Notes: a model not told the origin generated them from the sequence alone. 64,000 nucleotides of DNA from Minisyncoccota bacterium (GCA_018063165.1 JAGOQU010000002.1:3048-67047), one strand, 5' to 3'. Positions 10,862 to 25,998 are shown, counted from the stretch's first letter. Made by a program: numbers and translations.

Positions 10862-10871
10862 TTACACTATT

Positions 10872-12563
10872 ATGAAAAAAACTTTTTTTGTTATCTTATC
10901 AATATACATTTCAGTAATTTCTTTGCACAATACAACATATGCAGCTAACCAGGTAGCAGGAGCTCTAGAACCTACTCAAATAATGAACAATGTTGAACTT
11001 GGTATTATTGATTTTGCTACTGTTGACCAACTTATACAAGACACACTCCTTACCCGCAAAACAGTTATTTTAGATGTAATAGAAGCTGGGCTTATATCTT
11101 ATGCACAACAAACAGCTATTGAAGAGATTGTAGCGTGGGCTAATGGTGGTTTCAATGAGAGTGACTCACTTATTGTTTCTAATCCTGAAAAATACATATT
11201 AGGAGAAGGTAGAAAGATAGTCATGAAAAACTTACAAGATATCCCTACTGGCACAGCATTTGGTGATAGTATTTTTAGTGCTATTTTAAATAATTCAAAA
11301 GAAGTGAGCACAGCTAGTCAATTAAAAGAACTTAGTAATTCTCCTTATTTAGCAACACTACAAAAAAATACATGTGATGGTGATACTATTCTAGATATGG
11401 CTCAAAAAGCGGCAGAGTCTGAAGGAGGGTCAGAAGAGGAGATACGTGCAAACTATGACGAGTTTCATGCTAATTATTTTGACTCTTTTTGTAACAATAA
11501 TCCAAACGAAGACCCTAGCACAGCATCTAATCTAGAAGAACTTGCCAAGTATGACTCTTCTGTTTCCGGTTGGGATGGTTGGCTTATTTCAATAAACGAC
11601 AACAAATTCACACGAACACAAGAAGCTTTAAAAATAGTAGAAAACGACAAACAAAAAAAAGAGACATTCGCTACAAAAGAATTATATGATGGCCTAGGTA
11701 CACTTAGTCAAAAAGGGTGTGCAGATGATGTGACCGATATGGCTGAATGTCTTAACCCTATTATTCTTAATCCAGGAAAAGTAGTGCAAGATACTCTTTC
11801 TGCGGCAGCAAATGCACAATTAGAAAGAATTAGTAACTTAACTGGTGCAGATGGTATAGCTGCTCTTATTACAGAATTTATAACAAGCTCCCTAAAAGAA
11901 GGTCTCAATAAAACAATACAAAACAACTTACACTCATCAAATGATGAAGAGACAATAGGTTCTACAGCTCCTCCTACACAAGATTTTTTGAATAACACAG
12001 AAAAGAAAGAACAGATCACTGCACCTATATTAAAACAACTAAATTTTATACTAACAGTACTTACTGATTTAGAAAAAATAGATAATGATTTTTTATCTAG
12101 TATGATTAGTTATGAAAATCGTATACAAGACGGAAGAACTTGCTTCAACACACTTGTTATTGATTATCCATTATTAGCCAATACTACTGATGTTGTTAAT
12201 GCATACGCTTTTTATACAGAAAGACAAGGGAGGGTGGACACTGTCCGAACAGAGGCAACTAATGAAAAAATAAAAATAGGAGAAGCGAGAAGTCTTGTAA
12301 CAGAAACCCAACTAAAAATAGCGTCAACAAACTCATCCCAAGAATTAACCAATATATATAAAGAATACTCTAATGCCTATGAAGATGGAGGATATCCAAC
12401 AAATCAAATCTTAGCAAGAAGAAAAGGTGACTATCAGCAAGCTCAATCAAATGTAAGATTAGATACAGCAACATCACCTTCAGAAGGGGACATGATATTA
12501 CACGAAAAAAAGTGTAAATCATTACGATCTTCTCAGGAGCAAGGTAATGGGGGTAGTAGATAA
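10872..12563 (+). CDS. Secreted protein with signal peptide, unknown function (T4SS-cluster associated)
   Basis: Start chosen at 'MKKTFFVILSIYISVISLHNTTYAANQ' (signal peptide); the six-frame ORF extends upstream to 10800. Confidence 0.45.
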   Translation: MKKTFFVILSIYISVISLHNTTYAANQVAGALEPTQIMNNVELGIIDFATVDQLIQDTLLTRKTVILDVIEAGLISYAQQTAIEEIVAWANGGFNESDSLIVSNPEKYILGEGRKIVMKNLQDIPTGTAFGDSIFSAILNNSKEVSTASQLKELSNSPYLATLQKNTCDGDTILDMAQKAAESEGGSEEEIRANYDEFHANYFDSFCNNNPNEDPSTASNLEELAKYDSSVSGWDGWLISINDNKFTRTQEALKIVENDKQKKETFATKELYDGLGTLSQKGCADDVTDMAECLNPIILNPGKVVQDTLSAAANAQLERISNLTGADGIAALITEFITSSLKEGLNKTIQNNLHSSNDEETIGSTAPPTQDFLNNTEKKEQITAPILKQLNFILTVLTDLEKIDNDFLSSMISYENRIQDGRTCFNTLVIDYPLLANTTDVVNAYAFYTERQGRVDTVRTEATNEKIKIGEARSLVTETQLKIASTNSSQELTNIYKEYSNAYEDGGYPTNQILARRKGDYQQAQSNVRLDTATSPSEGDMILHEKKCKSLRSSQEQGNGGSR

Positions 12564-12629
12564 ATAACAACTTTTATAATTTCTTATATTCCCACTTCAT
12601 TCTTGTCTTAGTCGTGATACACTAAGAAC

Positions 12630-15188
12630 ATGAAACATACGTGGTTTTTTGGTACCCAAGTATCTATAGTAAAGTCTATCGCTTCACTAATATTCTTTTG
12701 TAGTATTATTGTTGGTTTTTTGTCTCCTGTTAAAACATCAGCTCAAACATATACAGATGGTCAACTTATATATTTAAAAGCTTATGTTGAATGTGCTAAT
12801 AGACTTGGTCCAAAATTAGCTGATCCAGCTCACGCAAATGATGATGATGTTAAACGATGTAAAATGAATCAACAGAGTGCAGGTGGGAATACCACAGCAA
12901 CAACAGACGAACTAAGAGCTGTTATTAACCAAGCTTTAACTAACGGAGATGCTGCACGCGATGAGGCAAGAAAAGTACAACAAAACGCAAGTAAATGTTC
13001 TAATATAATAACAACTTTTACAGAATGTATTGATGCTGGTTTTGCTTGGATTGTCAAACATACCTTACTTGCAATAGCAGGATGGTTACTATGGCTCACA
13101 GGAACCATGATGAACTATGCTATTGATATAGGTATACTTCAATTTTCTAAATGGGCACCTGACGCACTCTATCCTATATGGATAATTATACGTCAAATAG
13201 TTTCTCTATTTGTTGTCTTTGCAGGACTTTTTCTTGGTTTCATGTATATCATTAATAAAGGAGATGAATTCAAAAAATATATTCCTTGGGTTGTTATTTT
13301 TGCTCTTTTTGTCAATTTTTCATACCCTATTACACGTGCACTTATAGATGTATCTAATGTTATATCTTTAAATATTTATACTAGTGCTGTAGGGTCAAAC
13401 GCTCTTACTGGAAGCACTTCAATAACAGGAGAACAAACTCCTGGCGCTATCATAAGAAATAAACTAGGTCTTCAAGGTCTAGTTGATTATGCTATTAACG
13501 GTGCAAAAGAAGGCGAAGGTGTTTTAAATAAAATAGACAACACACCTTCAGCGCTTCTTGCTGTTATTTTTATTGCGTATGCTGCATGGATATTTTTTAA
13601 AGTTACCATGCTTCTTGTATCAAGAACAGCTGTACTAGTCTTCCTTATTATTGCTTCTCCTGTACTACTTGTTGATACTGTTATACCGAAACTAGGCCCA
13701 ACAGCAGCAAAACTACGTGAAATGTTCTTTCAGCAACTTTTCCTTGGACCTATTTTTACTATTATGCTTGCTATAACACTCAAATTTCTTGATGTATTTA
13801 AATCATCAGGGGCTCTTGGTGGTAGTGCGACTTTGGATACTATGTCATCTGGAACAGGATCGTCTACTATTGTAATGTTCTTCAATCTCCTAATGATGCT
13901 TGTCATGCTCAAAATAATGATAAATGTAACAGAATCAACGTCAGGAAGTGTAGGGAAGGCAATTTCTGGCGCTGTAGGCACAGTTGGGGGCTTTGCTCTT
14001 GGTGCTGCAACAGGAGGAGCTGGTCTTATAGGTCGCGCAACCATAGGAAGAGCTGCTGCAAAACTAGGGGGTAGCAAGTGGATGCAAAATAGACAAGGTG
14101 GTTTCGTAGGAAGACAGCTTGCAAATATGACAGACTCTGTTGCAAAGAGTAGTTTTGATGGACGTAATTCAAGTATAGTCCAAAGTGGAGCAAAAAGAAT
14201 GGGGCTTAGTTTAGGAATGGGAAGCAAGATGAACTATGAAATGATGCAAGAAAACAGAGCAAAAAATCTAAAAGCACATCTTGAACGAACAGGGACATAC
14301 CAACGAGACACCAAAGATGAGAACGGAATACTACGAAGAAAAGGAGATGTAGACAATAGTACAGAGTCTATAGAAGCACGTAAAAGAATTATAGAAAATT
14401 CTGGTGGTTCAAAATTCTTGTCATCAGAAGCAAATAAAGAGGCTTTAAAAAGAGACTTAGAGAAAGCTAATGTACAGTTAAGCAGGTCACAAGATGAAAA
14501 AATTGTTACGGACATAAATAATATGTCTACAGAAAACAGAGATGCTTTTGAAAAAAATATTTCTAAATATACATCTGATCCAACAATTACATCAGAGATG
14601 AAAGCTAAAATACAAAAAGCCAGAATAAATAAAATTGTTACTGATTATAAAAAACTAGAAAGAGAAGTTGATAAAGATGCATTCAGAAGAATGTATGGAT
14701 CAGAACCTTCTGATGCTGATGTTAAAGATAAGCTAGATGGTGCAGATGTTTCAAAAGCTGAAGAAACCTACAACAGTTTTGATTTGAATACAGAAAAAGG
14801 GAAAGCTGATAAAAGAGCATTTGTTGAAAAATCTACTCAGGGAGGGGTGGATGCTAATATACGCGTAAAAATAATTAACCTTGAATCTGAAAATGCTCTC
14901 AAAAAATATAAAGAAGCTGGCGGAGACAAAACATCAGCTGGAGAAAAAATATTCACTGAAGCTACTTCTGATGTCAGAGCAAAAATTACTGAATACAATA
15001 ATAATATACTAGAACAAAAAGCTAATCAACGTAACGAGAAAAAAGTTATCAACAAAGATTTGGCTGAGGCGATTGTTACTGAATTACAAAAAAATAAACA
15101 AGACCAAACACAACAAGGAGACCAAGAAGAAGAAAAAACATCTAGCAGCGCTAAAGAAAAAGAATTTAGCTGGGACTCTTTTGTATAA
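12630..15188 (+). CDS. VirB6/TrbL/ConG-like large polytopic T4SS channel protein (852 aa)
   Basis: Signal peptide, then 6 or more hydrophobic helices, a Gly-rich segment (GAVGTVGGFALGAATGGAGLIGRATIGRAAAKLGG), and a charged coiled-coil-like C-terminus. The size and architecture are those of ICEBs1 ConG / VirB6, inferred from architecture only. Confidence 0.5.
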   Translation: MKHTWFFGTQVSIVKSIASLIFFCSIIVGFLSPVKTSAQTYTDGQLIYLKAYVECANRLGPKLADPAHANDDDVKRCKMNQQSAGGNTTATTDELRAVINQALTNGDAARDEARKVQQNASKCSNIITTFTECIDAGFAWIVKHTLLAIAGWLLWLTGTMMNYAIDIGILQFSKWAPDALYPIWIIIRQIVSLFVVFAGLFLGFMYIINKGDEFKKYIPWVVIFALFVNFSYPITRALIDVSNVISLNIYTSAVGSNALTGSTSITGEQTPGAIIRNKLGLQGLVDYAINGAKEGEGVLNKIDNTPSALLAVIFIAYAAWIFFKVTMLLVSRTAVLVFLIIASPVLLVDTVIPKLGPTAAKLREMFFQQLFLGPIFTIMLAITLKFLDVFKSSGALGGSATLDTMSSGTGSSTIVMFFNLLMMLVMLKIMINVTESTSGSVGKAISGAVGTVGGFALGAATGGAGLIGRATIGRAAAKLGGSKWMQNRQGGFVGRQLANMTDSVAKSSFDGRNSSIVQSGAKRMGLSLGMGSKMNYEMMQENRAKNLKAHLERTGTYQRDTKDENGILRRKGDVDNSTESIEARKRIIENSGGSKFLSSEANKEALKRDLEKANVQLSRSQDEKIVTDINNMSTENRDAFEKNISKYTSDPTITSEMKAKIQKARINKIVTDYKKLEREVDKDAFRRMYGSEPSDADVKDKLDGADVSKAEETYNSFDLNTEKGKADKRAFVEKSTQGGVDANIRVKIINLESENALKKYKEAGGDKTSAGEKIFTEATSDVRAKITEYNNNILEQKANQRNEKKVINKDLAEAIVTELQKNKQDQTQQGDQEEEKTSSSAKEKEFSWDSFV

Positions 15189-15200
15189 TAGAAGACATAT

Positions 15201-15944
15201 ATGAACCCAACATATCTCGCACAAAACAGAAAAGAACTCTTCGAATCTTCACCTGAAGGTATAAAAAAACTTATTAAAGGTGGGGAATTACAAAAAACAG
15301 CTACATTTCTTGGAGAAAAACATAAACTTCCTATTGGTATGTATGGAAGACTTTCAAATATTATTTCTTTTGTTCTTGTAGGTGCATTACCAACAGAGTA
15401 TGTAGTAACCGCTCTTACAGATGCTATTTCTCTTACAGAAGAAGAGGCGACAGCACTAGCACAAGACCTAGAAACAGGAATATTTGAAAAGGCGAGAATG
15501 ATTACACTAGGAAAAGAAGTTAAAGAAACAACAACACTTGAATTCAAAGGACCACGTTCTCCTGATGAACTAAGAAAAGAAATAATGGATACCACTAAAC
15601 GTGAATCAGCTCTTGTTATACCTCAAACATCCGGTATTCCAAAGAAACCAACAGCAGTAACACCAGGGTCACGATCTCAACTTCTTGAACAATTGCAAAT
15701 TTTAAGTTCTATTCCAAACGATGAAGAGGTAACAGATAGACTAAAAAAAATACAAGAACAAATCAATTCAATAAAAAAAGTTGAGGAAGATAATTCTCTA
15801 CAATCAAATATAGCGCTTAAAAGTTTTATGTTTGGGGACAAAGGAAAAGAAACTGTTCCGGCTATAAAAAAAACAGCTACATATAGTGTTGCTCCTACGA
15901 GATACAACCTTGATCCTTACAGAGAAGTTCCAGAAGAAGAATAG
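15201..15944 (+). CDS. Hypothetical protein (247 aa) within the T4SS-like cluster
   Basis: ORF between the ConG-like and PrgI-like genes; one hydrophobic segment. Confidence 0.4.
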   Translation: MNPTYLAQNRKELFESSPEGIKKLIKGGELQKTATFLGEKHKLPIGMYGRLSNIISFVLVGALPTEYVVTALTDAISLTEEEATALAQDLETGIFEKARMITLGKEVKETTTLEFKGPRSPDELRKEIMDTTKRESALVIPQTSGIPKKPTAVTPGSRSQLLEQLQILSSIPNDEEVTDRLKKIQEQINSIKKVEEDNSLQSNIALKSFMFGDKGKETVPAIKKTATYSVAPTRYNLDPYREVPEEE

Positions 15945-16004: not shown

Positions 16005-16439
16005 ATGCAATTTCGAGTACCACAATTTATTGACATGGAAGATAAAATTATTGGACCTCTTACACTTAAACAGTTTGGTTATGTTGTAGGAGCAGGTGGT
16101 GTATCTTTTATTATATGGACTTTTATTCCTATTAAAATACTTGCCATTCTTCTTATTATTCCTATAGCAGGACTTTTTCTTGCTCTTGCTTTCGTTAAAC
16201 ACAACAATAGATCTTTTGGAGAATTTCTTGAAAACGCTTTTGCTTACTACACAAATCCAAAAGTATATACATGGAAACAACCAACACCAGAAGTAAATAC
16301 AAATGAAGCAAATATAGACAAAATAGTTTCTGACACGACAAAACAAATGATTATTTCAAAAACAGACAGAGACAGAATACATGATCTTTCTCTTGGCCTT
16401 GATGTACTTGATAACAATATTCCAAAAGAAGAAAAATAA
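16005..16439 (+). CDS. PrgI/ConD/VirB3-like small membrane protein
   Basis: 144 aa with two adjacent TM helices ('GYVVGAGGVSFIIWTFIPIKILAILLIIPIAGLFLALAFV'), immediately upstream of the VirB4-like ATPase as in Gram-positive conjugation loci. Confidence 0.5.
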   Translation: MQFRVPQFIDMEDKIIGPLTLKQFGYVVGAGGVSFIIWTFIPIKILAILLIIPIAGLFLALAFVKHNNRSFGEFLENAFAYYTNPKVYTWKQPTPEVNTNEANIDKIVSDTTKQMIISKTDRDRIHDLSLGLDVLDNNIPKEEK

Positions 16440-16520
16440 ATACACGCACTTCTAATCTATAACTATCAATAAACACTTTTCACCATTGGAGATACACATT
16501 TCTGTTGTATACTGAGCTAT

Positions 16521-17156
16521 ATGGCAAAAGGTATAGCAACTCAAGAATTCGTACCAATAGAAAGAGTAAGGGATGGTATTATCACTTTAAAAACAGGTGA
16601 GCTTCGTGCCGTTCTCATCACCAATTCTCTTAATCTTGCTCTTAAAAGTGAAGACGAGCAACAAGCTATACTTCTTCAGTTTCAAACATTTCTTAACTCA
16701 CTTGATTTTAATATAGAATTTTTTGTTGAATCAAGAAGACTTAATATCAAACCTTATATTGATATCCTTCAAGCAAGAAGTAAAGAAATAAAAGAAGATC
16801 TTCTAAAAATACAAATACATGAGTACATTGGTTTTATTACCAAATTCACAGAAGAAAGTAACATCATGACAAAACATTTCTTTATTACTATTCCGTATTT
16901 TCAATCAGAACAAACGTCTTCAAATGCTTCATTGTTACCTTTTGGTTCATCTTCGTCTAGTAAAAAAAATGAAGAAACAAATTTTGAAGCATCACGTATA
17001 CAATTAGAGCAAAGAATTTCTACTGTTGTTATGGGGCTTGCACGTTTCGGTCTTCGTGCTCAAAAATTAGGAACAGAAGAAGTTGTTGAACTTTTTTATA
17101 AATTATTTAATCCGAGTGAGCAAAATAGAAAAGCTCCACCAATAACACAACAATAA
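16521..17156 (+). CDS. VirB4/ConE-like ATPase, N-terminal fragment (211 aa), separated from the rest by a stop plus frame change
   Basis: 'VPIERVRDGIITLKTGELRAVLITNSLNLALKSEDEQQAILLQFQTFLNSLDFNIEF' matches the conserved N-terminal segment of Gram-positive VirB4 proteins (Tn916 Orf16/ConE type). Confidence 0.55.
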   Translation: MAKGIATQEFVPIERVRDGIITLKTGELRAVLITNSLNLALKSEDEQQAILLQFQTFLNSLDFNIEFFVESRRLNIKPYIDILQARSKEIKEDLLKIQIHEYIGFITKFTEESNIMTKHFFITIPYFQSEQTSSNASLLPFGSSSSSKKNEETNFEASRIQLEQRISTVVMGLARFGLRAQKLGTEEVVELFYKLFNPSEQNRKAPPITQQ

Positions 17157-17160
17157 CATT

Positions 17161-18984
17161 ATGGGAATTTTTGATTTTTTAAACGCCAACAAAAAAACAG
17201 ATAAACCTGTTGTTTCTCCTGTATTACCAGAACAGGTATATAAAATTGCAGAAATGCAACTAAAAGATGTTATAGCTCCAAGTGCTCTTGGTATCACTTC
17301 AAACGGTCTTAATCTTGGTACAGTTGTTGTTCGTTCTTATTTTGTTATATCATATCCACGTTATCTTACAGACAATTGGCTTTCTCCTATTATTAACCTT
17401 GATAAAGTTTTTAATGTTTCAATACACGTATCTCCACTTAACACCAGTGACGTCATGAAAACGTTTCAAAGAAAAGTTGCAGAAGTTGAAAGTCAGATTA
17501 TTACACGAGAAGAAGAGGGGAAAGTAAGAGACCCTGCTCTTGATGTAGCTTTTGAAGATCTTGAAGATCTTCGTGATGGTCTTATTCAGGCTCAAGAAAA
17601 AATGTTTGAAGTGTCTCTTTATATTTCTTTGTATGGAGAAAATGAAGAGGAGTTAGATAAAGTGGAAAATGAAATGAAAAACATACTTGAAAGTCGTCTT
17701 GTATATATCAAACCAGCTACATATCAACAAGATGTAGGTTTTCTTTCTACACTTCCATTAGGACAAGACAAGCTTGCAATAAAAAATAAAATAAACACAT
17801 CTCCTCTTTCTTCATTTTTCCCTTTTGTTTCTTCTGACCTTTCTTCAGATAAAGGTATTTTATATGGTCTTAATAGACATAACGGTAGTCTTATTCTATT
17901 TGATCGTTTTTCTTTAGAGAATTACAACTCTATCGTGTTTGCAAAATCTGGCTCTGGAAAAAGTTATTTAACAAAATTAGAAATACTACGAACACTCATG
18001 TTCGATACGGAGGTGATCATTATAGATCCAGAACGAGAATATGAATTCCTTGCAGAATCTGTAGGTGGTAGATATTTTGATATTTCTCTTACAAGTGATC
18101 ATCATATTAATCCTTTTGATCTTCCTAATCCAACTGCTGACGAATCTCCTTCTGAAGTTCTTCGTTCAAATATAGTTAATTTAGTTGGACTTTTTCGTGT
18201 TATGCTTGGAGGCCTTAGTCCAGAAGAAGATGCTATCGTTGACCAAGCTATCACCGAAACATATGCACTTAAAGATATAAATGGTGATTCTGATTTTACA
18301 AAACTAGAACCACCACTTCTTTCTGATTTTGAAATGGTATTAGGTGGTATAGATGGATCAGAAGATTTAATACAAAGACTTTCAAAATATACAAGGGGGA
18401 CATGGTCTGGTTTTATCAACAAACCTTCTAATGTTGATATCAATAAAAAACTCGTATGTTTTTCTATACGTGACATGGAAGATGAATTAAAAGCAGTGGC
18501 AATGTATATCATTACTCACTACATTTGGAATTCTGTACGTAAAAATATTAAAAAAAGACTTCTTGTTGTTGATGAAGCATGGATAATGATGAAAAACGAC
18601 GACACTGCATCGTTCTTATTTGGTCTTGCAAAACGTGGAAGAAAATACTATTTAGGTCTTGCTACTATTACGCAAGATGTTGGTGACTTCCTAAAATCAC
18701 CATATGGTCTACCTATTATTACGAACTCATCCATACAAATGCTTTTGAAGCAATCTCCTTCGTCTATCGATGTTATACAAAAAACATTCAACTTAACAGA
18801 TGAAGAGAAGTTTTTACTTCTTGAATCTGGTGTAGGTGAGGGGATATTCTTTGCAGGACTTAAACACGTAGCCATAAAAGTGGTTGCTTCATACACAGAA
18901 GATCAAATCATCACAAGTGACCCGTCTCAGCTTCTCAAAATAAAACAAATGAAGGATGAATTAGCAGAATCAAAAGGTTTATGA
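17161..18984 (+). CDS. VirB4/ConE/TraC-family T4SS ATPase, ATPase portion (607 aa)
   Basis: Walker A 'FAKSGSGKSYL', Walker B 'LLVVDEAWIMM', 'LATITQDV' motif; stop TGA overlaps the next gene's ATG. Confidence 0.8.
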   Translation: MGIFDFLNANKKTDKPVVSPVLPEQVYKIAEMQLKDVIAPSALGITSNGLNLGTVVVRSYFVISYPRYLTDNWLSPIINLDKVFNVSIHVSPLNTSDVMKTFQRKVAEVESQIITREEEGKVRDPALDVAFEDLEDLRDGLIQAQEKMFEVSLYISLYGENEEELDKVENEMKNILESRLVYIKPATYQQDVGFLSTLPLGQDKLAIKNKINTSPLSSFFPFVSSDLSSDKGILYGLNRHNGSLILFDRFSLENYNSIVFAKSGSGKSYLTKLEILRTLMFDTEVIIIDPEREYEFLAESVGGRYFDISLTSDHHINPFDLPNPTADESPSEVLRSNIVNLVGLFRVMLGGLSPEEDAIVDQAITETYALKDINGDSDFTKLEPPLLSDFEMVLGGIDGSEDLIQRLSKYTRGTWSGFINKPSNVDINKKLVCFSIRDMEDELKAVAMYIITHYIWNSVRKNIKKRLLVVDEAWIMMKNDDTASFLFGLAKRGRKYYLGLATITQDVGDFLKSPYGLPIITNSSIQMLLKQSPSSIDVIQKTFNLTDEEKFLLLESGVGEGIFFAGLKHVAIKVVASYTEDQIITSDPSQLLKIKQMKDELAESKGL

Positions 18985-19961
18985 AAATTTTTACACAAAA
19001 AATATATATTCTTTTTTCTCTACTATATGCTATATTCACAATTCATACTGCATATGCAGAACCTCAGGTAAGTTTAAGTCTTATCCCTAAAAACCCCGTA
19101 CCGTATTCTCCTCTTCTTTTACGTGTTTCAAGTTATTCTTTTGACGTAAATACTGCGATGATAACATGGAAATCGAATAATCAAATACTTGAATCAGGGT
19201 TGGGAAAAACTGAATTCACCTTACAAACAGGTGGAGTAGGGGAAGAATCTATTATCAATGTTGTTGTAGAAACAAAAACAGGAATTAGGGTAGAAAAAAG
19301 AATAAAAATTATCCCTGAATCTGTATCTCTTATATACGAAACACCAGAAAGTTATACCCCTCTTTTTTATGAAGGTCTTTCTTTACCAGGAGAACAAGCT
19401 ACTATTCGATTTACAGCATTGCCGTATATGAGTGATGGGGGATCAATCATATCACCAGAAAAAATATCTTTTTCGTGGTATGTAAATGATACTTTAGTTA
19501 AAAAAAATTCTGGTATAAGTAAACAATCTGCAATGATTCCTCTTGATATGTTAACTGAATATACTTCTGTAAAAGTAGTAGCTCGTTCAGAAAATGGTTC
19601 AGTTGCAGAAAAAACAATAAAAATATACCCACACAAAATAACACCACTTTTTTATACCCATGACGAAATACTAGGTACCGCTTATAATCAAGCATATACA
19701 AAACGACTCCAAACAACTAAAGATTTTACTATTTCTTTTGAACCATATTATCTTTCTAGTAAAAACAATACTTCTTATGATGTGGTAACTGTTTGGACAA
19801 TGGATGGTCTTCCTATTACACCACTTGGAGGAAGATTATTATCAATGAAACCAAAAGAAAATAGTTACGGATCAAAAACCCTCTCTGTTACTGTTTCAAA
19901 TACAAAAAAACGTCTACAAAAAGTAACATCGAGTATCGCTCTTATTTTTGATACTCGCTGA
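18981..19961 (+). CDS. Secreted protein with signal peptide, unknown function
   Basis: 'MKIFTQKIYILFSLLYAIFTIHTAYAEPQ' signal peptide; translationally coupled to the VirB4 gene. Confidence 0.45.
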   Translation: MKIFTQKIYILFSLLYAIFTIHTAYAEPQVSLSLIPKNPVPYSPLLLRVSSYSFDVNTAMITWKSNNQILESGLGKTEFTLQTGGVGEESIINVVVETKTGIRVEKRIKIIPESVSLIYETPESYTPLFYEGLSLPGEQATIRFTALPYMSDGGSIISPEKISFSWYVNDTLVKKNSGISKQSAMIPLDMLTEYTSVKVVARSENGSVAEKTIKIYPHKITPLFYTHDEILGTAYNQAYTKRLQTTKDFTISFEPYYLSSKNNTSYDVVTVWTMDGLPITPLGGRLLSMKPKENSYGSKTLSVTVSNTKKRLQKVTSSIALIFDTR

Positions 19962-19992: not shown

Positions 19993-20841
19993 ATGGCTCA
20001 ACCAATATCATACACAGCATTAGAAAGTGATTTTATACGATCAGTTGGAGCTGAAGCACCAACATTCTCAGATGGAACATCTCCAAGTTTTTTTACATCA
20101 TCATCTTTTTTATACGCACTCTTTTTTGTTGTTATTGTTGTAGCTGCATCATATAGATATGCACTTGCTGGTATGCTTCGTATACAAGCTACAGAAGAGG
20201 GGATACGAAAATCAAAAGAAGAGTTTACAAGAGTTACTTATGGATTACTTGGTGTATTTGGTTTATGGCTTATTTTAGCTACTGTTAATAAAGACATGCT
20301 TACTGGTGATGTTGGTCTTGGTGCTTTAAAGAGTACTATAACAAGTGCTGGTGGAGGGTATATTCCGGGGCAGACGCCGGTGACACCACCTGTTACACCA
20401 CCAAATGATCCAGAAACACCTACCGATTCAGAAAACATAAATAGAGTAAGATTAGTTACTGTTGGTATAACTGTTAATAAACCAGCTTGTGTTGGAGCAA
20501 ATACAAGTTGTACAAACCTGGCCAGAATAGATGAATCTATTCTGGTAATGCTTGAAAAATTAGCAAAAGAATGTTCTTCTTGTAAAGGAGAATTAATGGT
20601 AACAGGAGGTACAGAACCTGGACACAGCGCAACATCTAATCATACAAAAGGTAAAGCTGTTGATCTTAGTTTTAAAGAATCTCTTCTAACTTTTCTTAAA
20701 AAGAATGGAGAAAATGTTGGTAATAACACTCGATGTAATACAAAATATAAATGGGGTGGATATGTATTTTGGGATGAAGAACAAGGGTGTGATAGTGTTG
20801 GTGGTGTAAGACATTTTCATATATCTCTTACAGGAAGATAA
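19993..20841 (+). CDS. Membrane-anchored peptidoglycan hydrolase: two-TM module + Pro/Thr linker + M15 (VanY-like) peptidase domain
   Basis: Start taken at 'MAQPISY' (six-frame ORF begins at 19948); TM helices 'FLYALFFVVIVVAASY' and 'TYGLLGVFGLWLILATV'; M15 motifs 'SNHTKGKAVDLS' (SxHxxGxAxD) and C-terminal 'VRHFHIS'. Confidence 0.55.
   Translation: MAQPISYTALESDFIRSVGAEAPTFSDGTSPSFFTSSSFLYALFFVVIVVAASYRYALAGMLRIQATEEGIRKSKEEFTRVTYGLLGVFGLWLILATVNKDMLTGDVGLGALKSTITSAGGGYIPGQTPVTPPVTPPNDPETPTDSENINRVRLVTVGITVNKPACVGANTSCTNLARIDESILVMLEKLAKECSSCKGELMVTGGTEPGHSATSNHTKGKAVDLSFKESLLTFLKKNGENVGNNTRCNTKYKWGGYVFWDEEQGCDSVGGVRHFHISLTGR
20088..20388 (+). repeat. Copy 1 of a ~300-bp near-identical (~98%) direct repeat encoding the shared membrane module
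   Basis: Aligned by eye to 22279..22578; only a few substitutions (e.g. tatacgcac/tatatgcac, gttattgtt/gttatcgtt). Confidence 0.85.
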
Positions 20842-20904
20842 TTTATAGAAATAATAATCTTAATACAATATATTCTATAAAATATCTCTGCTATACTATA
20901 CTAT

Positions 20905-22191
20905 ATGAATCGTCGATTACTTTTTGCTGTAGCTTTTACACTTTTATTCGCTGTTTGTGTTATTATTTGGTTTTTTGTGTATGCAACACCTCGAACTGAA
21001 ACAACATTAGGAAAACCAGTAGATCCTTTTGCTATAAAAGAATTACCTAAAAAATTTCAATTTCTAAAATCAGAAGGTGAGATCCCTGTATCAACATCAA
21101 CAACAGAAATGACATTTGCAAAACCAGAAATACTTACACAAATCTGGAATAGACCAACAACAGGACAAACATTCATAGAAAAATCAATAGTACAAGAAAT
21201 ACAAGCAACAACAACAAAAGGAACAACAACTATTTCTATTAAAAAATTAATACAAGCTACATCAACAACACTTATGTTTGTTGATAGAATAACTGGCTAT
21301 ATATATGGATACAATAGAGAAAGCACAAAAATATACCAAATAAGTAACAGTACTATTCCTGGTATATACGATGCGTATATTTTTAATAATGGAAAACAAA
21401 TACTTTTTAGATACGAAGATACCGATACTAATACCATTGTAACAGAACTTGCCACTATACCTTCTGTTGGTGAAAAAGAAGAACCAAAATCTCTTGAAAA
21501 TAGAAAATTCCTACCAGAAGGGGTAACATCTATTGCGCTTAATTCAAAAAAAACACTTGCTTCATATCTAGTTACAAGTAACGAAGGATCTTCTATATAC
21601 ACAATAAGACCATCTACTACAGATTTTATAGCAAGTAGTCCTCATACATCTTGGAAATTATCATATAGTGGAGATGCACTCTTTGCAACAACCAAACCAT
21701 CAGCATATGTAGAAGGATATACAGTGAAAATTCCATCATTTGAATTTATTATAGGAAACAAAACAGGTTTAGAAAGTAACCCTTCAGAAAAAGGGACTTT
21801 TATATCTAGTATGTGGTCAAACACAGGATTAAAAACTTTTCTTTCATTAAATGGAAATCAAAAAGTTCTTGATATAAAAACATTATCTTCTAAATGTGCT
21901 TGGGGACAAAAAGAATTCCTTGTGTGTGCTGTTCCAAAAACACTTACAAAAAGTGTTGAAGGATTACCTGACGATTGGTTCCAAGGAAGATTTTTCTTTG
22001 ATGACTCTTTTGTAACAGTAGATACAATCACTGGTGAGATTTTACCCTTATATACTTTTGATACAACAGAAAAAGGTATCTTTGATGTAATTAATATCTC
22101 TTTATCAAAAGACAATTCTATGGTTACTTTTTTGAGAAAACAAGACTACACATTATGGTTGCTTGATACTAATCTTTTTAATGCAGAATAA
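20905..22191 (+). CDS. N-terminally anchored membrane protein (428 aa), unknown function
   Basis: N-terminal TM 'LLFAVAFTLLFAVCVIIWFFVYA', Thr-rich extracytoplasmic region. Confidence 0.45.
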   Translation: MNRRLLFAVAFTLLFAVCVIIWFFVYATPRTETTLGKPVDPFAIKELPKKFQFLKSEGEIPVSTSTTEMTFAKPEILTQIWNRPTTGQTFIEKSIVQEIQATTTKGTTTISIKKLIQATSTTLMFVDRITGYIYGYNRESTKIYQISNSTIPGIYDAYIFNNGKQILFRYEDTDTNTIVTELATIPSVGEKEEPKSLENRKFLPEGVTSIALNSKKTLASYLVTSNEGSSIYTIRPSTTDFIASSPHTSWKLSYSGDALFATTKPSAYVEGYTVKIPSFEFIIGNKTGLESNPSEKGTFISSMWSNTGLKTFLSLNGNQKVLDIKTLSSKCAWGQKEFLVCAVPKTLTKSVEGLPDDWFQGRFFFDDSFVTVDTITGEILPLYTFDTTEKGIFDVINISLSKDNSMVTFLRKQDYTLWLLDTNLFNAE

Positions 22192-22195
22192 AAAT

Positions 22196-23203
22196 ATGGA
22201 CTATCAAGCTCTTGAACCAACAATTTCTTCAAGTATAGGAGTAGAACCTGTTTCGTTTAATAATAATTCAAATGTTTCATTTTTTACATCATCATCTTTT
22301 TTATATGCACTCTTTTTTGTTGTTATCGTTGTAGCTGCATCATATAGATATGCACTTGCTGGTATGCTTCGTATACAAGCTACAGAAGAGGGGATACGAA
22401 AATCAAAAGAAGAATTTACAAGAGTTACTTATGGATTACTTGGTGTATTTGGTTTATGGCTTATTTTAGCTACTGTTAATAAAGACATGCTTACTGGTGA
22501 TGTTGGTCTTGGTGCGTTAAAGAGTACTATAACAAGTGCTGGTGGTGGGTATATTCCGGGGCAGACGCCGGTGACACCTCCTACAACAAACCCAACAACA
22601 CCACAAAACACTGAAAAATGTTTATCAGAAAATGAAACAAAATCAGCTCTTTCTTCTTCTGTAGGTATTTGTGGAAATACACGATGTACTACATTTGTTG
22701 GTTGCAATTATAAACAATATGATTCTATTATTATAGAAGAGGCAAAACGTGCAAATATAAACCCAAATCTTATTAGAGTTATTATGTGTAAAGAATCAAG
22801 AGGAAAAAAGGATGTTCAAAATAGTAAAAATAACAACGGTACTTATGATTGTGGTTTAATGCAAATAAATCAAAATAAACCTTGTGATGAAGCTTCATAC
22901 AATGTTACCAACAACATAAGAGCTGGCGCTACTTTAATAAAATCAAAATTATCAGCAGTGAGTGGGGGTGTTACATATCCAGGTATACCAGTTGAAGCTA
23001 AAATGTTTGCTTCATATGCATGTTGTGGTGGTGGAATAAATCCAAATTCAGAAAGTAACGATTGTACAACATCCAGTGGATACCCTTTCACTCCACCAAA
23101 ATGGGCTTGTCCAAAAAATCCTGGACCAACTAATGCTAATATGTGTTTTGTTCGACAAGATGTATGTGGAGCACTTGCTTGCCTTAAAGAATTAGACAGC
23201 TAA
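22196..23203 (+). CDS. Membrane-anchored lytic transglycosylase: same two-TM module as 19993..20841 + Pro/Thr linker + SLT domain
   Basis: Start taken at 'MDYQALEP'; N-terminal ~100 aa nearly identical to 19993..20841; SLT motifs 'IMCKESRG...', 'YDCGLMQIN'. Confidence 0.6.
   Translation: MDYQALEPTISSSIGVEPVSFNNNSNVSFFTSSSFLYALFFVVIVVAASYRYALAGMLRIQATEEGIRKSKEEFTRVTYGLLGVFGLWLILATVNKDMLTGDVGLGALKSTITSAGGGYIPGQTPVTPPTTNPTTPQNTEKCLSENETKSALSSSVGICGNTRCTTFVGCNYKQYDSIIIEEAKRANINPNLIRVIMCKESRGKKDVQNSKNNNGTYDCGLMQINQNKPCDEASYNVTNNIRAGATLIKSKLSAVSGGVTYPGIPVEAKMFASYACCGGGINPNSESNDCTTSSGYPFTPPKWACPKNPGPTNANMCFVRQDVCGALACLKELDS
22279..22578 (+). repeat. Copy 2 of the ~300-bp direct repeat
   Basis: See copy 1. 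It also creates identical spurious reverse-strand ORFs (20238..20438, 22429..22707). Confidence 0.85.
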
Positions 23204-23941
23204 TTATGCGTGTTTAATTTTATCTGGATGAAGATGAGCTGTTACATGTTTCATATATACATCTTGTAAATATCCAATTACATTACTTACCAACCAATAA
23301 AGACCAAGAGCAGAAGGAAGAGCAAATGCAGAAGCACCAATTATAACAGGAAGAATATACAATAATTGTATTTTCATAGATTTCATAAACTGATCTTGAA
23401 ATGTTTGTTCATCTGATCCTTTCTTTGTACCCATATCAACAGTTTGACGACGAGCAAGTGCATATGATGAAAATCCTGTTAGAACAGCTATTACTATATT
23501 ACCTTTTTCCGTTACATCAAATAACCCAAATGCAAGTGTGTGTAATGTTTCAGGAAAACTAACAAAAGAATATAGAGAAAGAGGGTCAGCTTGTAACCCT
23601 TTTGAAAAAACAAAGTATAAAGCAAAGAAAATAGGAATCTGAAGAATAACAGTAAACAAACTAGCAAAAGGATTAACTTTTTCTCGTTTATACATTTCTA
23701 TCATCATTTTTGAAGCTTCTTGTGGTTTTGTTTTTTGAAGTTCTTTAATTTTATTCATTTCTGGTTCAAGACGCTTCATTGCATACTGAGTTCTGAGCGC
23801 AGAAAGATTAAGAGGTAAAAGAAAAAATTTAACAATAAGCGTTACTATAACAATAGCTGTTCCTATATCATGAAGAGGGACAACAGTAAGAACAACAACA
23901 AGGAGGTTATAAATTGGTTCGTAAAATAATGTATGAAACAT
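23204..23941 (-). CDS. yidC: Membrane protein insertase YidC (short Gram-positive/CPR form)
   Basis: Conserved position next to rnpA; polytopic, with 'FFLLPLNLSALRTQYAMKRLEPEMNKIKE...'. Confidence 0.8.
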   Translation of the reverse strand: MFHTLFYEPIYNLLVVVLTVVPLHDIGTAIVIVTLIVKFFLLPLNLSALRTQYAMKRLEPEMNKIKELQKTKPQEASKMMIEMYKREKVNPFASLFTVILQIPIFFALYFVFSKGLQADPLSLYSFVSFPETLHTLAFGLFDVTEKGNIVIAVLTGFSSYALARRQTVDMGTKKGSDEQTFQDQFMKSMKIQLLYILPVIIGASAFALPSALGLYWLVSNVIGYLQDVYMKHVTAHLHPDKIKHA

Positions 23942-24660: not shown

Positions 24661-25998
24661 ATGGACTATCAACAACTTTGGAACAGTGCTTTATCCCAAA
24701 TTGAGATAGAACTCTCAAGAGTTAACTTTAATACTTGGTTCAAGAATACACGTATTATAGATTATAAAGACGGGGAAGTTACTATCGGTGTTCCTAACGA
24801 ATTTGTTAAAGACTGGCTCAATCAAAAATATCATAAATTTATACTTCGTATATTACGAACAATACACGAAAGCGTTCGTTCTGTTGTGTTTACAGTAGTA
24901 AAACCAGAAACATTACAAAAGAAAGCTCAAAACATAACAATAACAGGTCAAACCCTTCCTCTTCAAGATTTATATGTCAATAAAGATGATGGTCTTAATC
25001 CACGTTACACTTTTGAAACATTTATTGTTGGTTCTTTTAACGAAGTAGCATACGCTTGCTCTCAAGCTGTTATCAATAACCTTGGTATTGTCTATAATCC
25101 TCTTTTTGTATATGGAAATACAGGTCTTGGAAAGACACATATGATGCAAGCAATAGGGAATACTGTAAAGAAAAAATATCCAGACAGAAAAGTATTTTAC
25201 ACGTCACTTGAAAAGTTTTACATGGACTATGTAAATGCTACAAATCTTAACAAGATTAATAGTTTTAAAGAAAAATACAGAAAGTATGATGTCTTTATTA
25301 TGGACGATATTCAATTTATTAATGGAAAAGAAAGAACACAAGATGAACTCTTCCATCTCTTTAATTCTCTTTATGAAATGAATAAGCAGATTATCTTCTC
25401 CTCAGATAAACATCCAAACCTCATTGTTGGCCTAGAAGACCGTCTACGTTCACGATTTAACCAAGGAATGATAGTTGATGTAAACATCCCTCAAGTAGAG
25501 TCAAGGCTCGCAATTTTACAATCAAAAGCAAAAGAGTACAGAGAGAAAATCCCTCAAGAAGTTCTTCAATATATAGCAGAAACAATACAAGGAAATATTC
25601 GAGAACTAGAAGGGGTAATGACGTCAGTACTTGGATATATACAAATTAAACAACAAGCAATAACTCTTCTTGATGTTAAAAACCTTCTTAAAAATAGTGT
25701 ACGAGCAAAAAAGAGTATATCTATTCCTGAAATAGTAAAAATGATTGCTGATTATTATCATATTCCTGATGTGTATATTTATAACAAAACAAGACGAAAA
25801 GATGTTGTAAAACCAAGACAAATTGTCATGTATGTACTTCGTGAAGATTTTGATATTTCGTATCCAATGATAGGTGACAGATTAGGTGGACGTGACCACA
25901 CAACAGTAATACATTCATACGAAAAAATAAAAGGTATGTTAAAAGATAACCCACAACTATCACGTGAAGTTGAAGATATACGAGCAATGCTACTTTAA
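24661..25998 (+). CDS. dnaA: Chromosomal replication initiator DnaA
   Basis: AAA+ 'GNTGLGKTHMMQAIGN', Walker B 'VFIMDDIQF', C-terminal DNA-binding helix-turn-helix 'VMYVLREDFDISYPMIGDRLGGRDHTTVIHSYEKI'. Confidence 0.9.
   Translation: MDYQQLWNSALSQIEIELSRVNFNTWFKNTRIIDYKDGEVTIGVPNEFVKDWLNQKYHKFILRILRTIHESVRSVVFTVVKPETLQKKAQNITITGQTLPLQDLYVNKDDGLNPRYTFETFIVGSFNEVAYACSQAVINNLGIVYNPLFVYGNTGLGKTHMMQAIGNTVKKKYPDRKVFYTSLEKFYMDYVNATNLNKINSFKEKYRKYDVFIMDDIQFINGKERTQDELFHLFNSLYEMNKQIIFSSDKHPNLIVGLEDRLRSRFNQGMIVDVNIPQVESRLAILQSKAKEYREKIPQEVLQYIAETIQGNIRELEGVMTSVLGYIQIKQQAITLLDVKNLLKNSVRAKKSISIPEIVKMIADYYHIPDVYIYNKTRRKDVVKPRQIVMYVLREDFDISYPMIGDRLGGRDHTTVIHSYEKIKGMLKDNPQLSREVEDIRAMLL

What the first reader, a model, noticed from the sequence alone, without database searches (positions are those of the whole stretch)
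19993..23203. Two cell-wall hydrolases share a near-identical 300-bp membrane module but carry different catalytic domains (M15 peptidase vs SLT)
Nucleotides 20088-20388 and 22279-22578 are ~98% identical and encode the same two-TM-helix module ('FFTSSSFLYALFFVVIVVAASYRYALAGMLRIQATEEGIRKSKEEFTRVTYGLLGVFGLWLILATVNKDMLTGDVGLGALKSTITSAGGGYIPGQTPVTPP'). The N-termini before it and the domains after it (VanY-like 'SNHTKGKAVDLS' vs SLT 'GLMQIN') are unrelated. This indicates recent gene conversion or domain shuffling of a T4SS-associated anchoring module, functionally like a CwlT muramidase/peptidase split into two genes. The module's helix-loop-helix topology also resembles VirB2/TrbC pilins, which is speculative.
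Basis: seen in the sequence. Interest (0 to 1): 0.65.

Follow-up and report, generated by a model that had tools for sequence, protein, structure and literature searches.

The report
Pilin-anchored wall hydrolase pair, homogenised module
Two cell-wall-cutting enzymes in the type IV secretion gene cluster of an ultra-small (Patescibacteria) bacterium each begin with the same pilin-like membrane module. Gene conversion keeps the two copies almost identical at the DNA level, and this holds in every related genome that has the pair.

Summary
Positions 20089-20391 and 22280-22582 are a 303-nt direct repeat with 6 mismatches, all synonymous. The repeat lies inside gene A (19993-20841) and gene B (22196-23203).

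The shared module is a divergent VirB2-like T4SS pilin of family PF18895 (hhalign 99.2%, E 4e-19), not a generic anchor. Gene B carries an SLT lytic transglycosylase domain. Gene A carries a zinc peptidase domain of the LAS / hedgehog-DD-peptidase (M15-like) type, with invariant H-x6-D, E and H-x-H. It scores below Pfam cut-offs.

Both architectures are old and syntenic. They sit in a chromosomal T4SS operon (PrgI, split VirB4, orf326, A, orf428, B) next to yidC-rnpA-dnaA in Paceibacteria. In 18 of 18 related loci with two module genes, the module DNA is 88-100% identical within the genome. Between genomes, modules are only about 45% identical at the protein level. This is concerted evolution by gene conversion, not recent shuffling and not an assembly artefact.

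Relatives fuse the same pilin module to VanY, NlpC/P60, amidase, YkuD or SLT domains.

The most likely function is a VirB1-type wall-opening activity, split into a glycosidase and a peptidase and built into the T4SS through the pilin module. The function is inferred, not shown.

The parts
16005..16439 (+). PrgI / VirB3-like T4SS membrane protein
   Evidence: Pfam PF12666 PrgI, E 8.4e-13. Found at the same position in L001 and L011.
16521..17156 (+). TraC-like N-terminal domain of VirB4, encoded as a separate ORF
   Evidence: The orthologues in L001 and L011 carry PF26593 TraC-like. It lies directly upstream of the P-loop ORF.
17161..18984 (+). VirB4-type T4SS ATPase (P-loop part)
   Evidence: Pfam P-loop_TraG 1.4e-24, AAA_10 and DUF87. 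It is 78-91% identical to orthologues in 80 Patescibacteria loci.
18981..19961 (+). orf326: conserved secreted or membrane protein of the cluster, family unknown
   Evidence: Hydrophobic N-terminus. Syntenic in L001, L011, L012 and L020. No Pfam, NCBIfam or PDB hit.
19993..20841 (+). Gene A (282 aa): pilin-like module + Pro/Thr linker + LAS (M15-like) zinc peptidase domain
   Evidence: ORF. About 40 representative clusters share this architecture. The AF2 model has pLDDT 82.
19993..20088 (+). Diverged N-terminal tail of A (32 aa, acidic, Y-x-A-L-E motif), outside the conversion tract
   Evidence: Alignments. L10 and E11 are nearly invariant in the family.
20089..20391 (+). Repeat copy 1 (conversion tract). 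It encodes two hydrophobic helices with a basic loop between them (VirB2-like pilin hairpin) plus the start of the linker.
   Evidence: AF2 helices 33-64 and 68-98 have pLDDT above 90. hhalign to PF18895 pilins gives 99.15%, E 4e-19.
20425..20838 (+). LAS / hedgehog-DD-peptidase-like (M15-like) catalytic domain of A. Putative Zn and catalytic residues are H217, D224, E262, H274 and H276.
   Evidence: These columns are invariant in 34 sequences. Pfam Peptidase_M15_4 gives only E 0.16. The BFVD top hit is a hedgehog-like fold, E 2e-3, prob 1.0. A profile search hits hedgehog N-domains at the Zn motif with E about 1.
20905..22191 (+). orf428: conserved membrane-anchored protein between A and B, family unknown
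   Evidence: N-terminal hydrophobic helix. Syntenic in L001, L011 and L012; absent in L020. No Pfam, NCBIfam or PDB hit.
22196..23203 (+). Gene B (335 aa): pilin-like module + linker + SLT lytic transglycosylase, Cys-rich
   Evidence: ORF. About 10 representative clusters share this architecture. Alignment A11.
22280..22582 (+). Repeat copy 2 (conversion tract)
   Evidence: There are 6 synonymous differences from copy 1.
22727..23035 (+). SLT (GH23) domain of B. Catalytic Glu E200 lies in MCKES, and GLMQIN is present.
   Evidence: Pfam PF01464, E 2.7e-10, 40.3 bits against a cut-off of 21.3. E200, C219-Q223 and Y274 are invariant. The best NCBIfam hits are TrbN and IagB, both far below cut-off.
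23204..23941 (-). yidC, which marks the end of the T4SS operon. It is followed by rnpA, rpmH, dnaA (24661-25998) and dnaN, so this is the origin region.
   Evidence: Pfam results and ORFs. L001 and L011 have the same layout.

Best explanation
Genes A and B are two old paralogues in a chromosomal, origin-proximal type IV secretion operon of a Paceibacteria (Patescibacteria/CPR) bacterium.

Each protein is a complete VirB2-like T4SS pilin: an acidic N-tail, helix 1, a basic loop and helix 2. The inferred topology has the N- and C-termini outside the cell. A Pro/Thr linker extends the pilin to an extracytoplasmic peptidoglycan hydrolase. In A this is a LAS / M15-like zinc peptidase. In B it is an SLT lytic transglycosylase.

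Shown:
- the repeat itself;
- the homology of the module to PF18895 pilins;
- the SLT domain, and the conserved metal and catalytic residues of A;
- the conservation of both architectures and of the gene order;
- the fact that within each genome the two modules are nearly identical in DNA, while orthologous modules in other species have diverged to about 45% protein identity.

The last point means recurrent intrachromosomal gene conversion between direct repeats 2.2 kb apart. Tract ends fall near the domain borders and differ between lineages. Purifying selection acts on both copies.

Inferred: the pilin module docks both enzymes into the same site of the T4SS, the site where VirB2 normally engages VirB6, VirB3 and VirB4. 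The glycan-cutting and peptide-cutting activities together would then open the cell wall exactly where the machine assembles. This would be a VirB1 / PrgK / CwlT-like function split over two pilin-anchored proteins. Homogenisation keeps the two modules interchangeable for that shared docking or co-assembly.
For: Repeat and its synonymous-only differences.

Pilin homology:
- The module profile retrieves 97 proteins from 1.84 billion. The 10 weak, short hits scanned all match PF18895, 7 of them at or above its gathering score.
- 6 of 34 A-type proteins, 11 of 61 module proteins and 39 of 62 locus ORFs hit PF18895.
- hhalign of A4 against a pilin alignment gives 99.15%, E 4e-19 over 85 columns.
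- A stand-alone-pilin HMM hits only A and B in the window, at 1.9e-21 and 3.3e-20.

Structure: the AF2 model has a helical hairpin at residues 33-98, a disordered linker at 111-139 and an alpha/beta domain at 145-282.

Catalytic domains.

Old architectures and synteny next to yidC and dnaA.

Concerted evolution:
- 18 of 18 loci with two module genes have tracts of 236-820 nt at 88-100% identity.
- In 11 of 11 genomes the own-genome paralogue is the nearest neighbour (83-97%), against 29-62% for the best module from another genome. One search shows the same pattern.

Complementary cargo pairs in relatives: NlpC/P60 with a lysozyme-like domain, SLT with Amidase_2, YkuD with SLT, and also VanY.

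Literature context: patescibacterial T4SS lie near dnaA, have VirB2-like pilins and, in Paceibacteria, VirB1 homologues associated with VirB4 (PMC12102498). The T4SS and its pilins are essential in Southlakia (PMC10633639).
Against: - Neither window protein reaches any Pfam pilin or M15 threshold on its own. The assignments rest on family-level profiles.
- The pilin set used for hhalign was itself recruited by the module profile, although it was confirmed independently by Pfam.
- There is no signal peptide in front of the module, so the N-out topology is inferred from charge distribution only.
- Some relatives have only one of the two genes (L012, L020, L022), so the pair is not obligatory.
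- 100% identity in some MAGs may be inflated by assembler bubble-popping.
- Nothing shows that the hydrolases act on the cell's own wall rather than on a host's wall.
- Homogenisation could be selectively neutral.
Confidence: 0.7

Rival explanations
1. Armed pilus or effector reading. The modules are true polymerising pilins, and the hydrolase domains are displayed along or at the tip of a T4SS pilus, or delivered at the contact site. Their role would be to breach the cell wall of the host bacterium on which this epibiont lives, not the cell's own wall.
For: - A and B are the only pilin-like genes in the 64-kb window.
- The fusion starts exactly where stand-alone pilins end.
- The cargo domains are highly diverse on a constant N-terminal module (VanY, SLT, NlpC/P60, amidase, YkuD). 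This resembles polymorphic effectors (own knowledge).
- The patescibacterial T4SS lacks a relaxase and coupling protein and is essential for epibiotic growth (PMC10633639, PMC12102498).
Against: - No immunity-like gene is evident.
- A 140-200 aa domain on every subunit would crowd a VirB2-type filament (own knowledge of F- and T-pilus structures).
- There is no evidence that any pilus exists in this clade.
- VirB1-type self-wall remodelling is the established role of T4SS-linked hydrolases.
Confidence: 0.18
2. Precursor reading. A and B are cleaved after the module (conserved N-x-D-L-L-x-G-D-V-x-L-x-x-L end). Both genes would then yield the same mature pilin plus two different free hydrolases, and identity of the modules would be selected so that the pilus or stalk is a homopolymer.
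For: - The module equals a whole pilin, followed by a disordered linker.
- C-terminal processing of TrbC/VirB2 pilins is established (own knowledge).
- The protein sequence of the two modules is identical.
Against: - No protease gene or recognisable cleavage motif was identified.
- The conversion tracts do not end at a fixed position.
- The idea is purely inferential.
Confidence: 0.07
3. Generic anchor with neutral homogenisation. The two-helix module merely tethers two housekeeping wall hydrolases to the membrane. Conversion happens simply because two similar sequences lie 2 kb apart, with no role in T4SS assembly.
For: - Conversion needs no selective reason.
- Some genomes lack one of the genes.
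- The window proteins miss Pfam pilin thresholds.
Against: - Profile-profile and HMM evidence ties the module to PF18895.
- The genes are always in the VirB4 operon.
- The window encodes other, unrelated wall hydrolases elsewhere, for example M23-LysM at 1263-2273.
Confidence: 0.04
4. Assembly artefact, or independent very recent duplication or domain shuffling in this genome only.
For: MAG assemblies can mis-join or collapse repeats, and the sharp boundaries would fit a recent insertion.
Against: - The same repeat lies in the same two genes, with the same spacing of about 2.2 kb, in 18 independent assemblies from different projects.
- Several assemblies have resolved differences between the copies: 6 in the window, 17 in L001, 33 in L018.
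- The differences are synonymous.
- Both architectures are conserved across species.
Confidence: 0.01

Closest known systems
VirB1 / TrbN / IagB-type specialised lytic transglycosylases of secretion systems
   Same: B has an SLT (GH23) domain with the E-S catalytic motif, and it is encoded in a T4SS operon next to VirB4. Its best NCBIfam hits are TrbN and IagB. PMC12102498 notes that VirB1 homologues are associated with VirB4 in Paceibacteria.
   Different: B is anchored by an N-terminal VirB2-like pilin module instead of being a soluble periplasmic protein. It is Cys-rich and is paired with a second pilin-anchored hydrolase. It scores far below the TrbN cut-off (26.5 bits against 246).
Bifunctional wall hydrolases of Gram-positive conjugation systems (PrgK of pCF10, TraG of pIP501, CwlT of ICEBs1)
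   Same: It belongs to a monoderm-type (MPF-FATA-like) T4SS. It is membrane-tethered and combines a glycan-strand cleaver with a peptide cleaver. These enzymes are presumed to open the wall for the channel (PMC12102498, refs 72-76 therein).
   Different: - The two activities are on two polypeptides, not one.
- The peptidase is LAS / M15-like here, rather than CHAP or NlpC/P60. NlpC/P60, amidase, VanY or YkuD occur in relatives.
- The anchor is a pilin hairpin.
- The anchors are homogenised by gene conversion.
VirB2/TrbC-like pilins of Patescibacteria (Pfam PF18895 T4SS_pilin; pilin arrays of Southlakia epibionticum and Nanosynbacter)
   Same: The fold and family of the module are the same, as is its location next to VirB4 and PrgI. 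[quoted passage not shown]
   Different: - The described arrays are stand-alone, sequence-divergent pilins (mean 25%, maximum 54% identity; PMC12102498). Here the pilin parts are 88-100% identical in DNA.
- Each pilin here carries an enzyme.
- In this subclade there is no signal peptide, and the Y-x-x-L-E motif sits at the very N-terminus.
Segmental concerted evolution of bacterial paralogues (e.g. Helicobacter pylori babA/babB, Salmonella tufA/tufB; own knowledge)
   Same: Paralogues in one genome share near-identical segments with sharp borders, while orthologues diverge. Synonymous sites are homogenised too.
   Different: The homogenised segment is a T4SS pilin domain, and the non-converted parts are unrelated catalytic domains. 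Only two copies exist. There is no sign of silent cassettes or phase variation.

Membership tests
PF18895 T4SS_pilin / VirB2-TrbC-like pilins | Significant match of the protein itself to the Pfam model | tested here: not met
   Neither window module gives a hit at E up to 10, and the full proteins give none at 0.1.
PF18895 T4SS_pilin / VirB2-TrbC-like pilins | Family-level homology (profile-profile, and relatives that reach the model) | tested here: met
   - hhalign gives 99.15%, E 4e-19 over 85 columns.
- A stand-alone pilin HMM hits A at 1.9e-21 and B at 3.3e-20.
- 39 of 62 syntenic module ORFs hit PF18895 at E 1e-3 or better.
- All 10 weak hits of the module profile that were scanned match PF18895, 7 of them at or above its gathering score.
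PF18895 T4SS_pilin / VirB2-TrbC-like pilins | Two hydrophobic helices joined by a short basic loop | tested here: met
   AF2 helices 33-64 and 68-98 have pLDDT above 90. The loop is RIQATEEGIRKSKEEFTR.
PF18895 T4SS_pilin / VirB2-TrbC-like pilins | Encoded in a T4SS cluster with VirB3 and VirB4 | tested here: met
   PrgI, a TraC-like ORF and VirB4 lie directly upstream. The layout is syntenic in 80 loci.
PF18895 T4SS_pilin / VirB2-TrbC-like pilins | Cleavable leader peptide and polymerisation into a pilus | not testable with these tools
   No hydrophobic leader precedes the module in A or B, by inspection. More distant relatives do have a signal peptide plus an N-domain. Assembly cannot be tested in silico here.
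SLT lytic transglycosylase (PF01464, GH23) | Score above the Pfam gathering threshold | tested here: met
   40.3 bits against 21.3, E 2.7e-10, residues 189-291 of the ORF.
SLT lytic transglycosylase (PF01464, GH23) | Catalytic Glu (E-S), GLMQ and the downstream Tyr motif conserved | tested here: met
   E200, G220-Q223 and Y274 are invariant in 12 B-type sequences.
Peptidase M15 / LAS (hedgehog-DD-peptidase fold) | Zinc site H-x6-D ... H-x-H, with S-x-H-x-x-G-x-A-x-D | tested here: met
   SNHTKGKAVD and HFH are present. H217, D224, E262, H274 and H276 are invariant in 34 sequences.
Peptidase M15 / LAS (hedgehog-DD-peptidase fold) | Score above the cut-off of a Pfam M15 model | tested here: not met
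   - Peptidase_M15_4 gives E 0.16, 13 bits against 25.
- One relative hits Peptidase_M15_3 at E 0.12.
- There are no PHROG or NCBIfam hits.
- The wider family carries no Pfam domain.
Peptidase M15 / LAS (hedgehog-DD-peptidase fold) | Fold similarity to a LAS or hedgehog N-domain | tested here: inconclusive
   - The BFVD top hit is annotated as a sonic-hedgehog-like fold: E 2.1e-3, prob 1.00, 115 columns, TMt 0.42.
- Profile A9 hits 20 hedgehog N-domains at E about 1, aligned on the Zn motif.
- Foldseek against PDB on the whole model was uninformative.
Bifunctional Gram-positive T4SS hydrolase (PrgK / TraG-pIP501 / CwlT type) | Glycosidase and peptidase domains in one polypeptide | tested here: not met
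   A and B are separate genes 2.2 kb apart. No module ORF with both domain types was seen among the A/B-type loci.
Concerted evolution by gene conversion | Paralogues closer within genomes than orthologues between genomes, including at synonymous sites, with discrete tracts | tested here: met
   - 18 of 18 loci show 88-100% DNA identity in the module.
- In 11 of 11 genomes the own paralogue is the nearest neighbour.
- The differences are mostly synonymous.
- Tract borders vary from lineage to lineage.

The most novel reading that the evidence does not exclude
In this Paceibacteria clade the only T4SS pilins are enzyme-bearing. The secretion system would then build a short pilus or stalk whose subunits each carry a peptidoglycan hydrolase. 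That would make it an enzymatically armed conjugative-type filament that drills through the wall of the host bacterium, or through both walls at the contact site. Gene conversion would be selected because all subunits must co-polymerise. The constant pilin module with swappable wall-degrading cargo would be a new delivery principle, analogous to polymorphic toxins.
Probability: 0.2. Interest if true: 0.85.

Novelty: new variant of a known kind. Interest (0 to 1): 0.62.

Why it matters
Patescibacterial T4SSs are widespread, sit next to the replication origin, lack DNA-transfer proteins, and are essential for the epibiotic lifestyle in the one system tested. What they do is open. This locus shows three things for a large Paceibacteria clade.

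- The VirB2-like pilin and the wall-degrading (VirB1-like) functions are physically fused.
- They come as glycosidase plus peptidase pairs.
- The pilin parts of a pair are kept identical by gene conversion, while the rest of each gene and the orthologues diverge.

This gives concrete, testable hypotheses. One is a shared docking or co-polymerisation site. The other is a wall-breaching role at the machine. It also flags a blind spot. Whole-protein identity (about 52% for A against B) hides the mosaic, and standard Pfam thresholds miss both the pilin and the peptidase in these proteins.

Tried and rejected
**Searches that returned little or nothing**
- A single-sequence AF2 model of A was useless (pLDDT 45).
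- The word-indexed homologue search found only 3 fragments with the module and nothing with the A catalytic domain alone.
- PDB sequence searches with A, with profile A4, with orf428 and with orf326 gave no significant hits.
- Foldseek against PDB on the two-domain model returned only histidine kinases at E above 0.1. This is a spurious hairpin-plus-alpha/beta resemblance.
- PHROGs gave nothing for the A family.
- The search for related loci with alignments A4 and A5 failed because no sufficiently conserved stretch exists.
- The module alignment A2 found nothing in GTDB genomes and only two short metagenome contigs.
- The exact protein A is not in the gene-position index.

**Ideas tested and dropped**
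- Hypervariable surface module: dropped. VirB4 and DnaA are simply very conserved, and the module diverges about as fast as orf326, orf428 and RnpA.
- GC-biased gene conversion signature: not seen (GC and GC3 of tracts against the rest, P = 0.2-0.3).
- A stand-alone pilin elsewhere in the window: none found.
- A single fused bifunctional hydrolase in relatives: none seen.

**Literature**
- Searches found no description of pilin-hydrolase fusions or of homogenised pilin modules. The library is incomplete.


Full report
**Observation**

The region holds two same-strand genes. Gene A runs from ATG 19993 to 20841 (282 aa). Gene B runs from ATG 22196 to 23203 (335 aa). A 428-aa ORF separates them.

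The repeat finder finds one outstanding direct repeat, 20089-20388 vs 22280-22579, at 98% identity. All other repeats in an 8-kb frame are 38 nt or shorter and 63-83% identical. Alignment and a script put the tract at 303 nt, or 101 codons (20089-20391 vs 22280-22582). It has six mismatches, and every one is a synonymous third-position change. With an expected synonymous fraction of 0.25, this has P of about 2e-4. Identity collapses abruptly at both ends.

One correction is needed. The 28-32 residues upstream of the tract are not unrelated. They are diverged homologues carrying a family-wide Y-x-[A/P]-L-E motif.

**Context**

The genes close an operon made of these parts:
- several uncharacterised secreted or polytopic proteins (9938-15944);
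- PrgI/VirB3 (16005-16439);
- a TraC-like N-domain ORF (16521-17156);
- a VirB4 ATPase (17161-18984);
- orf326, gene A, orf428 and gene B.

The operon abuts yidC, rnpA, rpmH, dnaA and dnaN. GC content is about 32%.

A VirB4-based scan of species-representative genomes returned 80 syntenic loci. All come from Patescibacteria MAGs, mostly labelled Paceibacterota, Nomurabacteria or Parcubacteria. This matches the published picture of an MPF-FATA-like, relaxase-less T4SS near dnaA in Patescibacteria, with VirB1 homologues associated with VirB4 specifically in Paceibacteria (PMC12102498). In Southlakia the T4SS and its pilins are essential (PMC10633639).

**What the shared module is**

A profile of the module, searched against 1.84 billion representative proteins, returned 97 hits.
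- The strong hits are 260-340-aa proteins with the module at residues 1-120.
- The weak hits are 115-200-aa proteins. All ten that I scanned match Pfam PF18895 T4SS_pilin, and seven of them reach or exceed its gathering score.

Further support comes from several directions:
- PF18895 is the only recurrent Pfam family among module proteins: 11 of 61, 6 of 34 and 39 of 62.
- hhalign of the A-type alignment against a stand-alone pilin alignment gives 99.15% probability and E 4e-19 over 85 columns, covering the whole hairpin.
- An HMM of stand-alone pilins hits A and B (1.9e-21 and 3.3e-20) and nothing else in the 64-kb window.
- AF2 with a 34-sequence alignment (pLDDT 82) shows two long helices (33-64 and 68-98), a disordered linker (111-139) and an alpha/beta domain (145-282).

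The window proteins themselves do not reach any Pfam pilin threshold. Membership is therefore established at family level only. The acidic N-tail and basic inter-helix loop suggest an N-out/C-out topology, as in VirB2. This is inference.

**The catalytic domains**

Gene B has a bona fide SLT domain: 40.3 bits against a cut-off of 21.3. Its Glu (MCKES), GLMQ and Tyr are invariant. Its best NCBIfam hits are TrbN and IagB, far below cut-off.

The C-terminal domain of gene A has a perfect S-x-H-x-x-G-x-A-x-D plus H-x-H signature. H217, D224, E262, H274 and H276 are invariant across 34 sequences. However, it scores only 13 bits on Peptidase_M15_4.

A profile search shows that it belongs to a Pfam-less family. 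That family is also present in actinobacteria and, oddly, in rotifers, collembola and nematodes. A broadened profile weakly hits 20 hedgehog N-domains exactly at the zinc motif (E about 1). The top BFVD structural match of the model is a hedgehog-like fold (E 2e-3, prob 1.0).

I call it a LAS / hedgehog-DD-peptidase (M15-like) zinc peptidase. Membership of any curated M15 family is not demonstrated.

**Old architectures, young modules**

About 40 representative clusters share A's architecture, and about 10 share B's. Syntenic loci L001 and L011 have both genes in the same order next to yidC and dnaA. Recent domain shuffling is therefore excluded.

Yet the module DNA is nearly identical within each genome. 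In L001 the tract is 354 nt at 95%. In L011 it is 307 nt at 100%. In all 18 loci that carry two module genes, the tract is 236-820 nt at 88-100% identity, and 16 of 18 are at 95% or higher.

In 11 of 11 genomes with A plus B, the nearest relative of each module is its own-genome paralogue (83-97% aa). The best module from any other genome is only 29-62% identical. Between-genome A-A and B-B identities have medians of 45-47% (one search shows the same pattern).

Where differences exist they are mostly synonymous, so both copies are under purifying selection. Tract borders differ from lineage to lineage.

This is the signature of recurrent gene conversion (concerted evolution). Purifying selection alone would not homogenise synonymous sites. 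An assembly artefact would not recur in 18 independent assemblies, several of which have resolved SNPs between the copies. One caveat applies: exact 100% values in some MAGs may be inflated by bubble-popping.

The module is not hypervariable. It diverges about as fast as orf326, orf428 and RnpA, while VirB4 and DnaA are simply very conserved. No GC-bias signature of conversion was found.

**Generality of the fusion**

In more distant Paceibacteria (VirB4 about 71% identical), the gene or genes after VirB4 and orf326 encode four elements in order: a signal peptide, a variable N-domain, a Y-x-L-L-A-P-L-P motif with the same pilin module, and then other wall enzymes.

A Pfam tally of 62 such ORFs gives:
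- T4SS_pilin 39;
- VanY 9;
- SLT 7, plus SLT_2 3, SLT_3 1 and SLT_4 1;
- NlpC/P60 5;
- Amidase_2 2;
- Peptidase_M15_4 2;
- Amidase_5 2;
- YkuD 1.

Of the five more distant pairs, three have Pfam hits for both cargo domains and each couples a glycan cleaver with a peptide or amide cleaver (SLT + Amidase_2 in L073; YkuD + SLT in L049) or has NlpC/P60 opposite a lysozyme-like domain judged by eye (L064, L075). No single bifunctional fusion was seen.

**Mechanism proposed**

- Shown: the anatomy, the homologies and the concerted evolution.
- Inferred: the pilin module inserts N-out/C-out and enters the T4SS at the site normally used by VirB2. The tethered SLT and LAS peptidase then open the peptidoglycan locally, which is a VirB1-like role.
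- Inferred: conversion, possibly favoured by selection, keeps the two modules interchangeable for that shared site.
- Alternatives that the data do not exclude: a hydrolase-decorated pilus or contact-site weapon against the host wall; proteolytic release of one common mature pilin plus two free enzymes; a neutral anchor.

**Relation to the literature**

[quoted passage not shown] It treats VirB1 and VirB2 as separate components.

The A/B pair is 52% identical over full length, yet identical in the pilin part. Whole-protein comparison and Pfam thresholds would therefore hide this mosaic. That is my inference.

I found no paper describing pilin-hydrolase fusions or homogenised T4SS pilin modules. 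The searchable library is incomplete.

**Verdict**

The finding is real and extends well beyond this window. It is a new variant of known kinds (T4SS wall hydrolases, and VirB2-like pilins of Patescibacteria), with a clear and reproducible case of segmental concerted evolution. Function remains inferred.

Noticed in passing
window 16521-17156 and 17161-18984; L001 6394-7044 and 7047-8870; L011 4344-4979 and 4985-6799: VirB4 is consistently split into a TraC-like N-domain ORF and a separate P-loop ORF, 4-5 nt apart. The split is conserved across species, so it is not a frameshift error.
   Followed up: partly
L020 12767-13783 (JAQBRF010000002.1); L012 7487-9773 (JAIPIK010000015.1): L020 has a single module+SLT gene in A's slot and lacks both the A catalytic domain and orf428. 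This is what a deletion between the two direct repeats would leave. L012, the closest relative of the window, has A and orf428 but no B. The pair is therefore not obligatory.
   Followed up: partly
window 20425-20838 (A catalytic domain) and hits P0128-P0216: The A-type zinc-peptidase domain belongs to a family without any Pfam annotation. The family also occurs in Streptomyces, Nonomuraea and Kitasatospora, and in rotifers (Adineta), collembola (Folsomia, Allacma) and a nematode. Its TGGTE-x-GH...SH-x-x-G-x-A-V-D motif is strikingly hedgehog-like.
   Followed up: partly
L001 9854-9926: A 7-nt tandem repeat (TAGCGTT), about 10 copies, lies in the intergenic spacer just upstream of gene A's orthologue. 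It is absent from the window.
   Followed up: no
L064 13267-14024 vs 16420-17177; L075 12798-13617 vs 14266-15085: In some distant relatives the identical tract is 758-820 nt. It covers the signal peptide and/or most of the N-terminal extracellular domain as well as the pilin module, so only the C-terminal enzymes differ.
   Followed up: partly
P0001-P0003; L005; L017: Many short metagenome contigs carrying the module end within it or just after it. This is consistent with assemblies breaking at this repeat, and the family is probably under-represented in MAGs for that reason.
   Followed up: no
window 9938-15944: The upstream part of the operon has no hit in Pfam or NCBIfam. It comprises orf307, a secreted orf587, an 852-aa polytopic membrane protein with a long charged C-terminal tail, and orf247. 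The 852-aa protein is VirB6-like by position only. These proteins evolve fast (22-73% identity to relatives).
   Followed up: partly
window 1263-2273 (- strand): A separate LysM + Peptidase_M23 wall hydrolase is encoded 18 kb upstream, outside the T4SS operon and without the pilin module.
   Followed up: no
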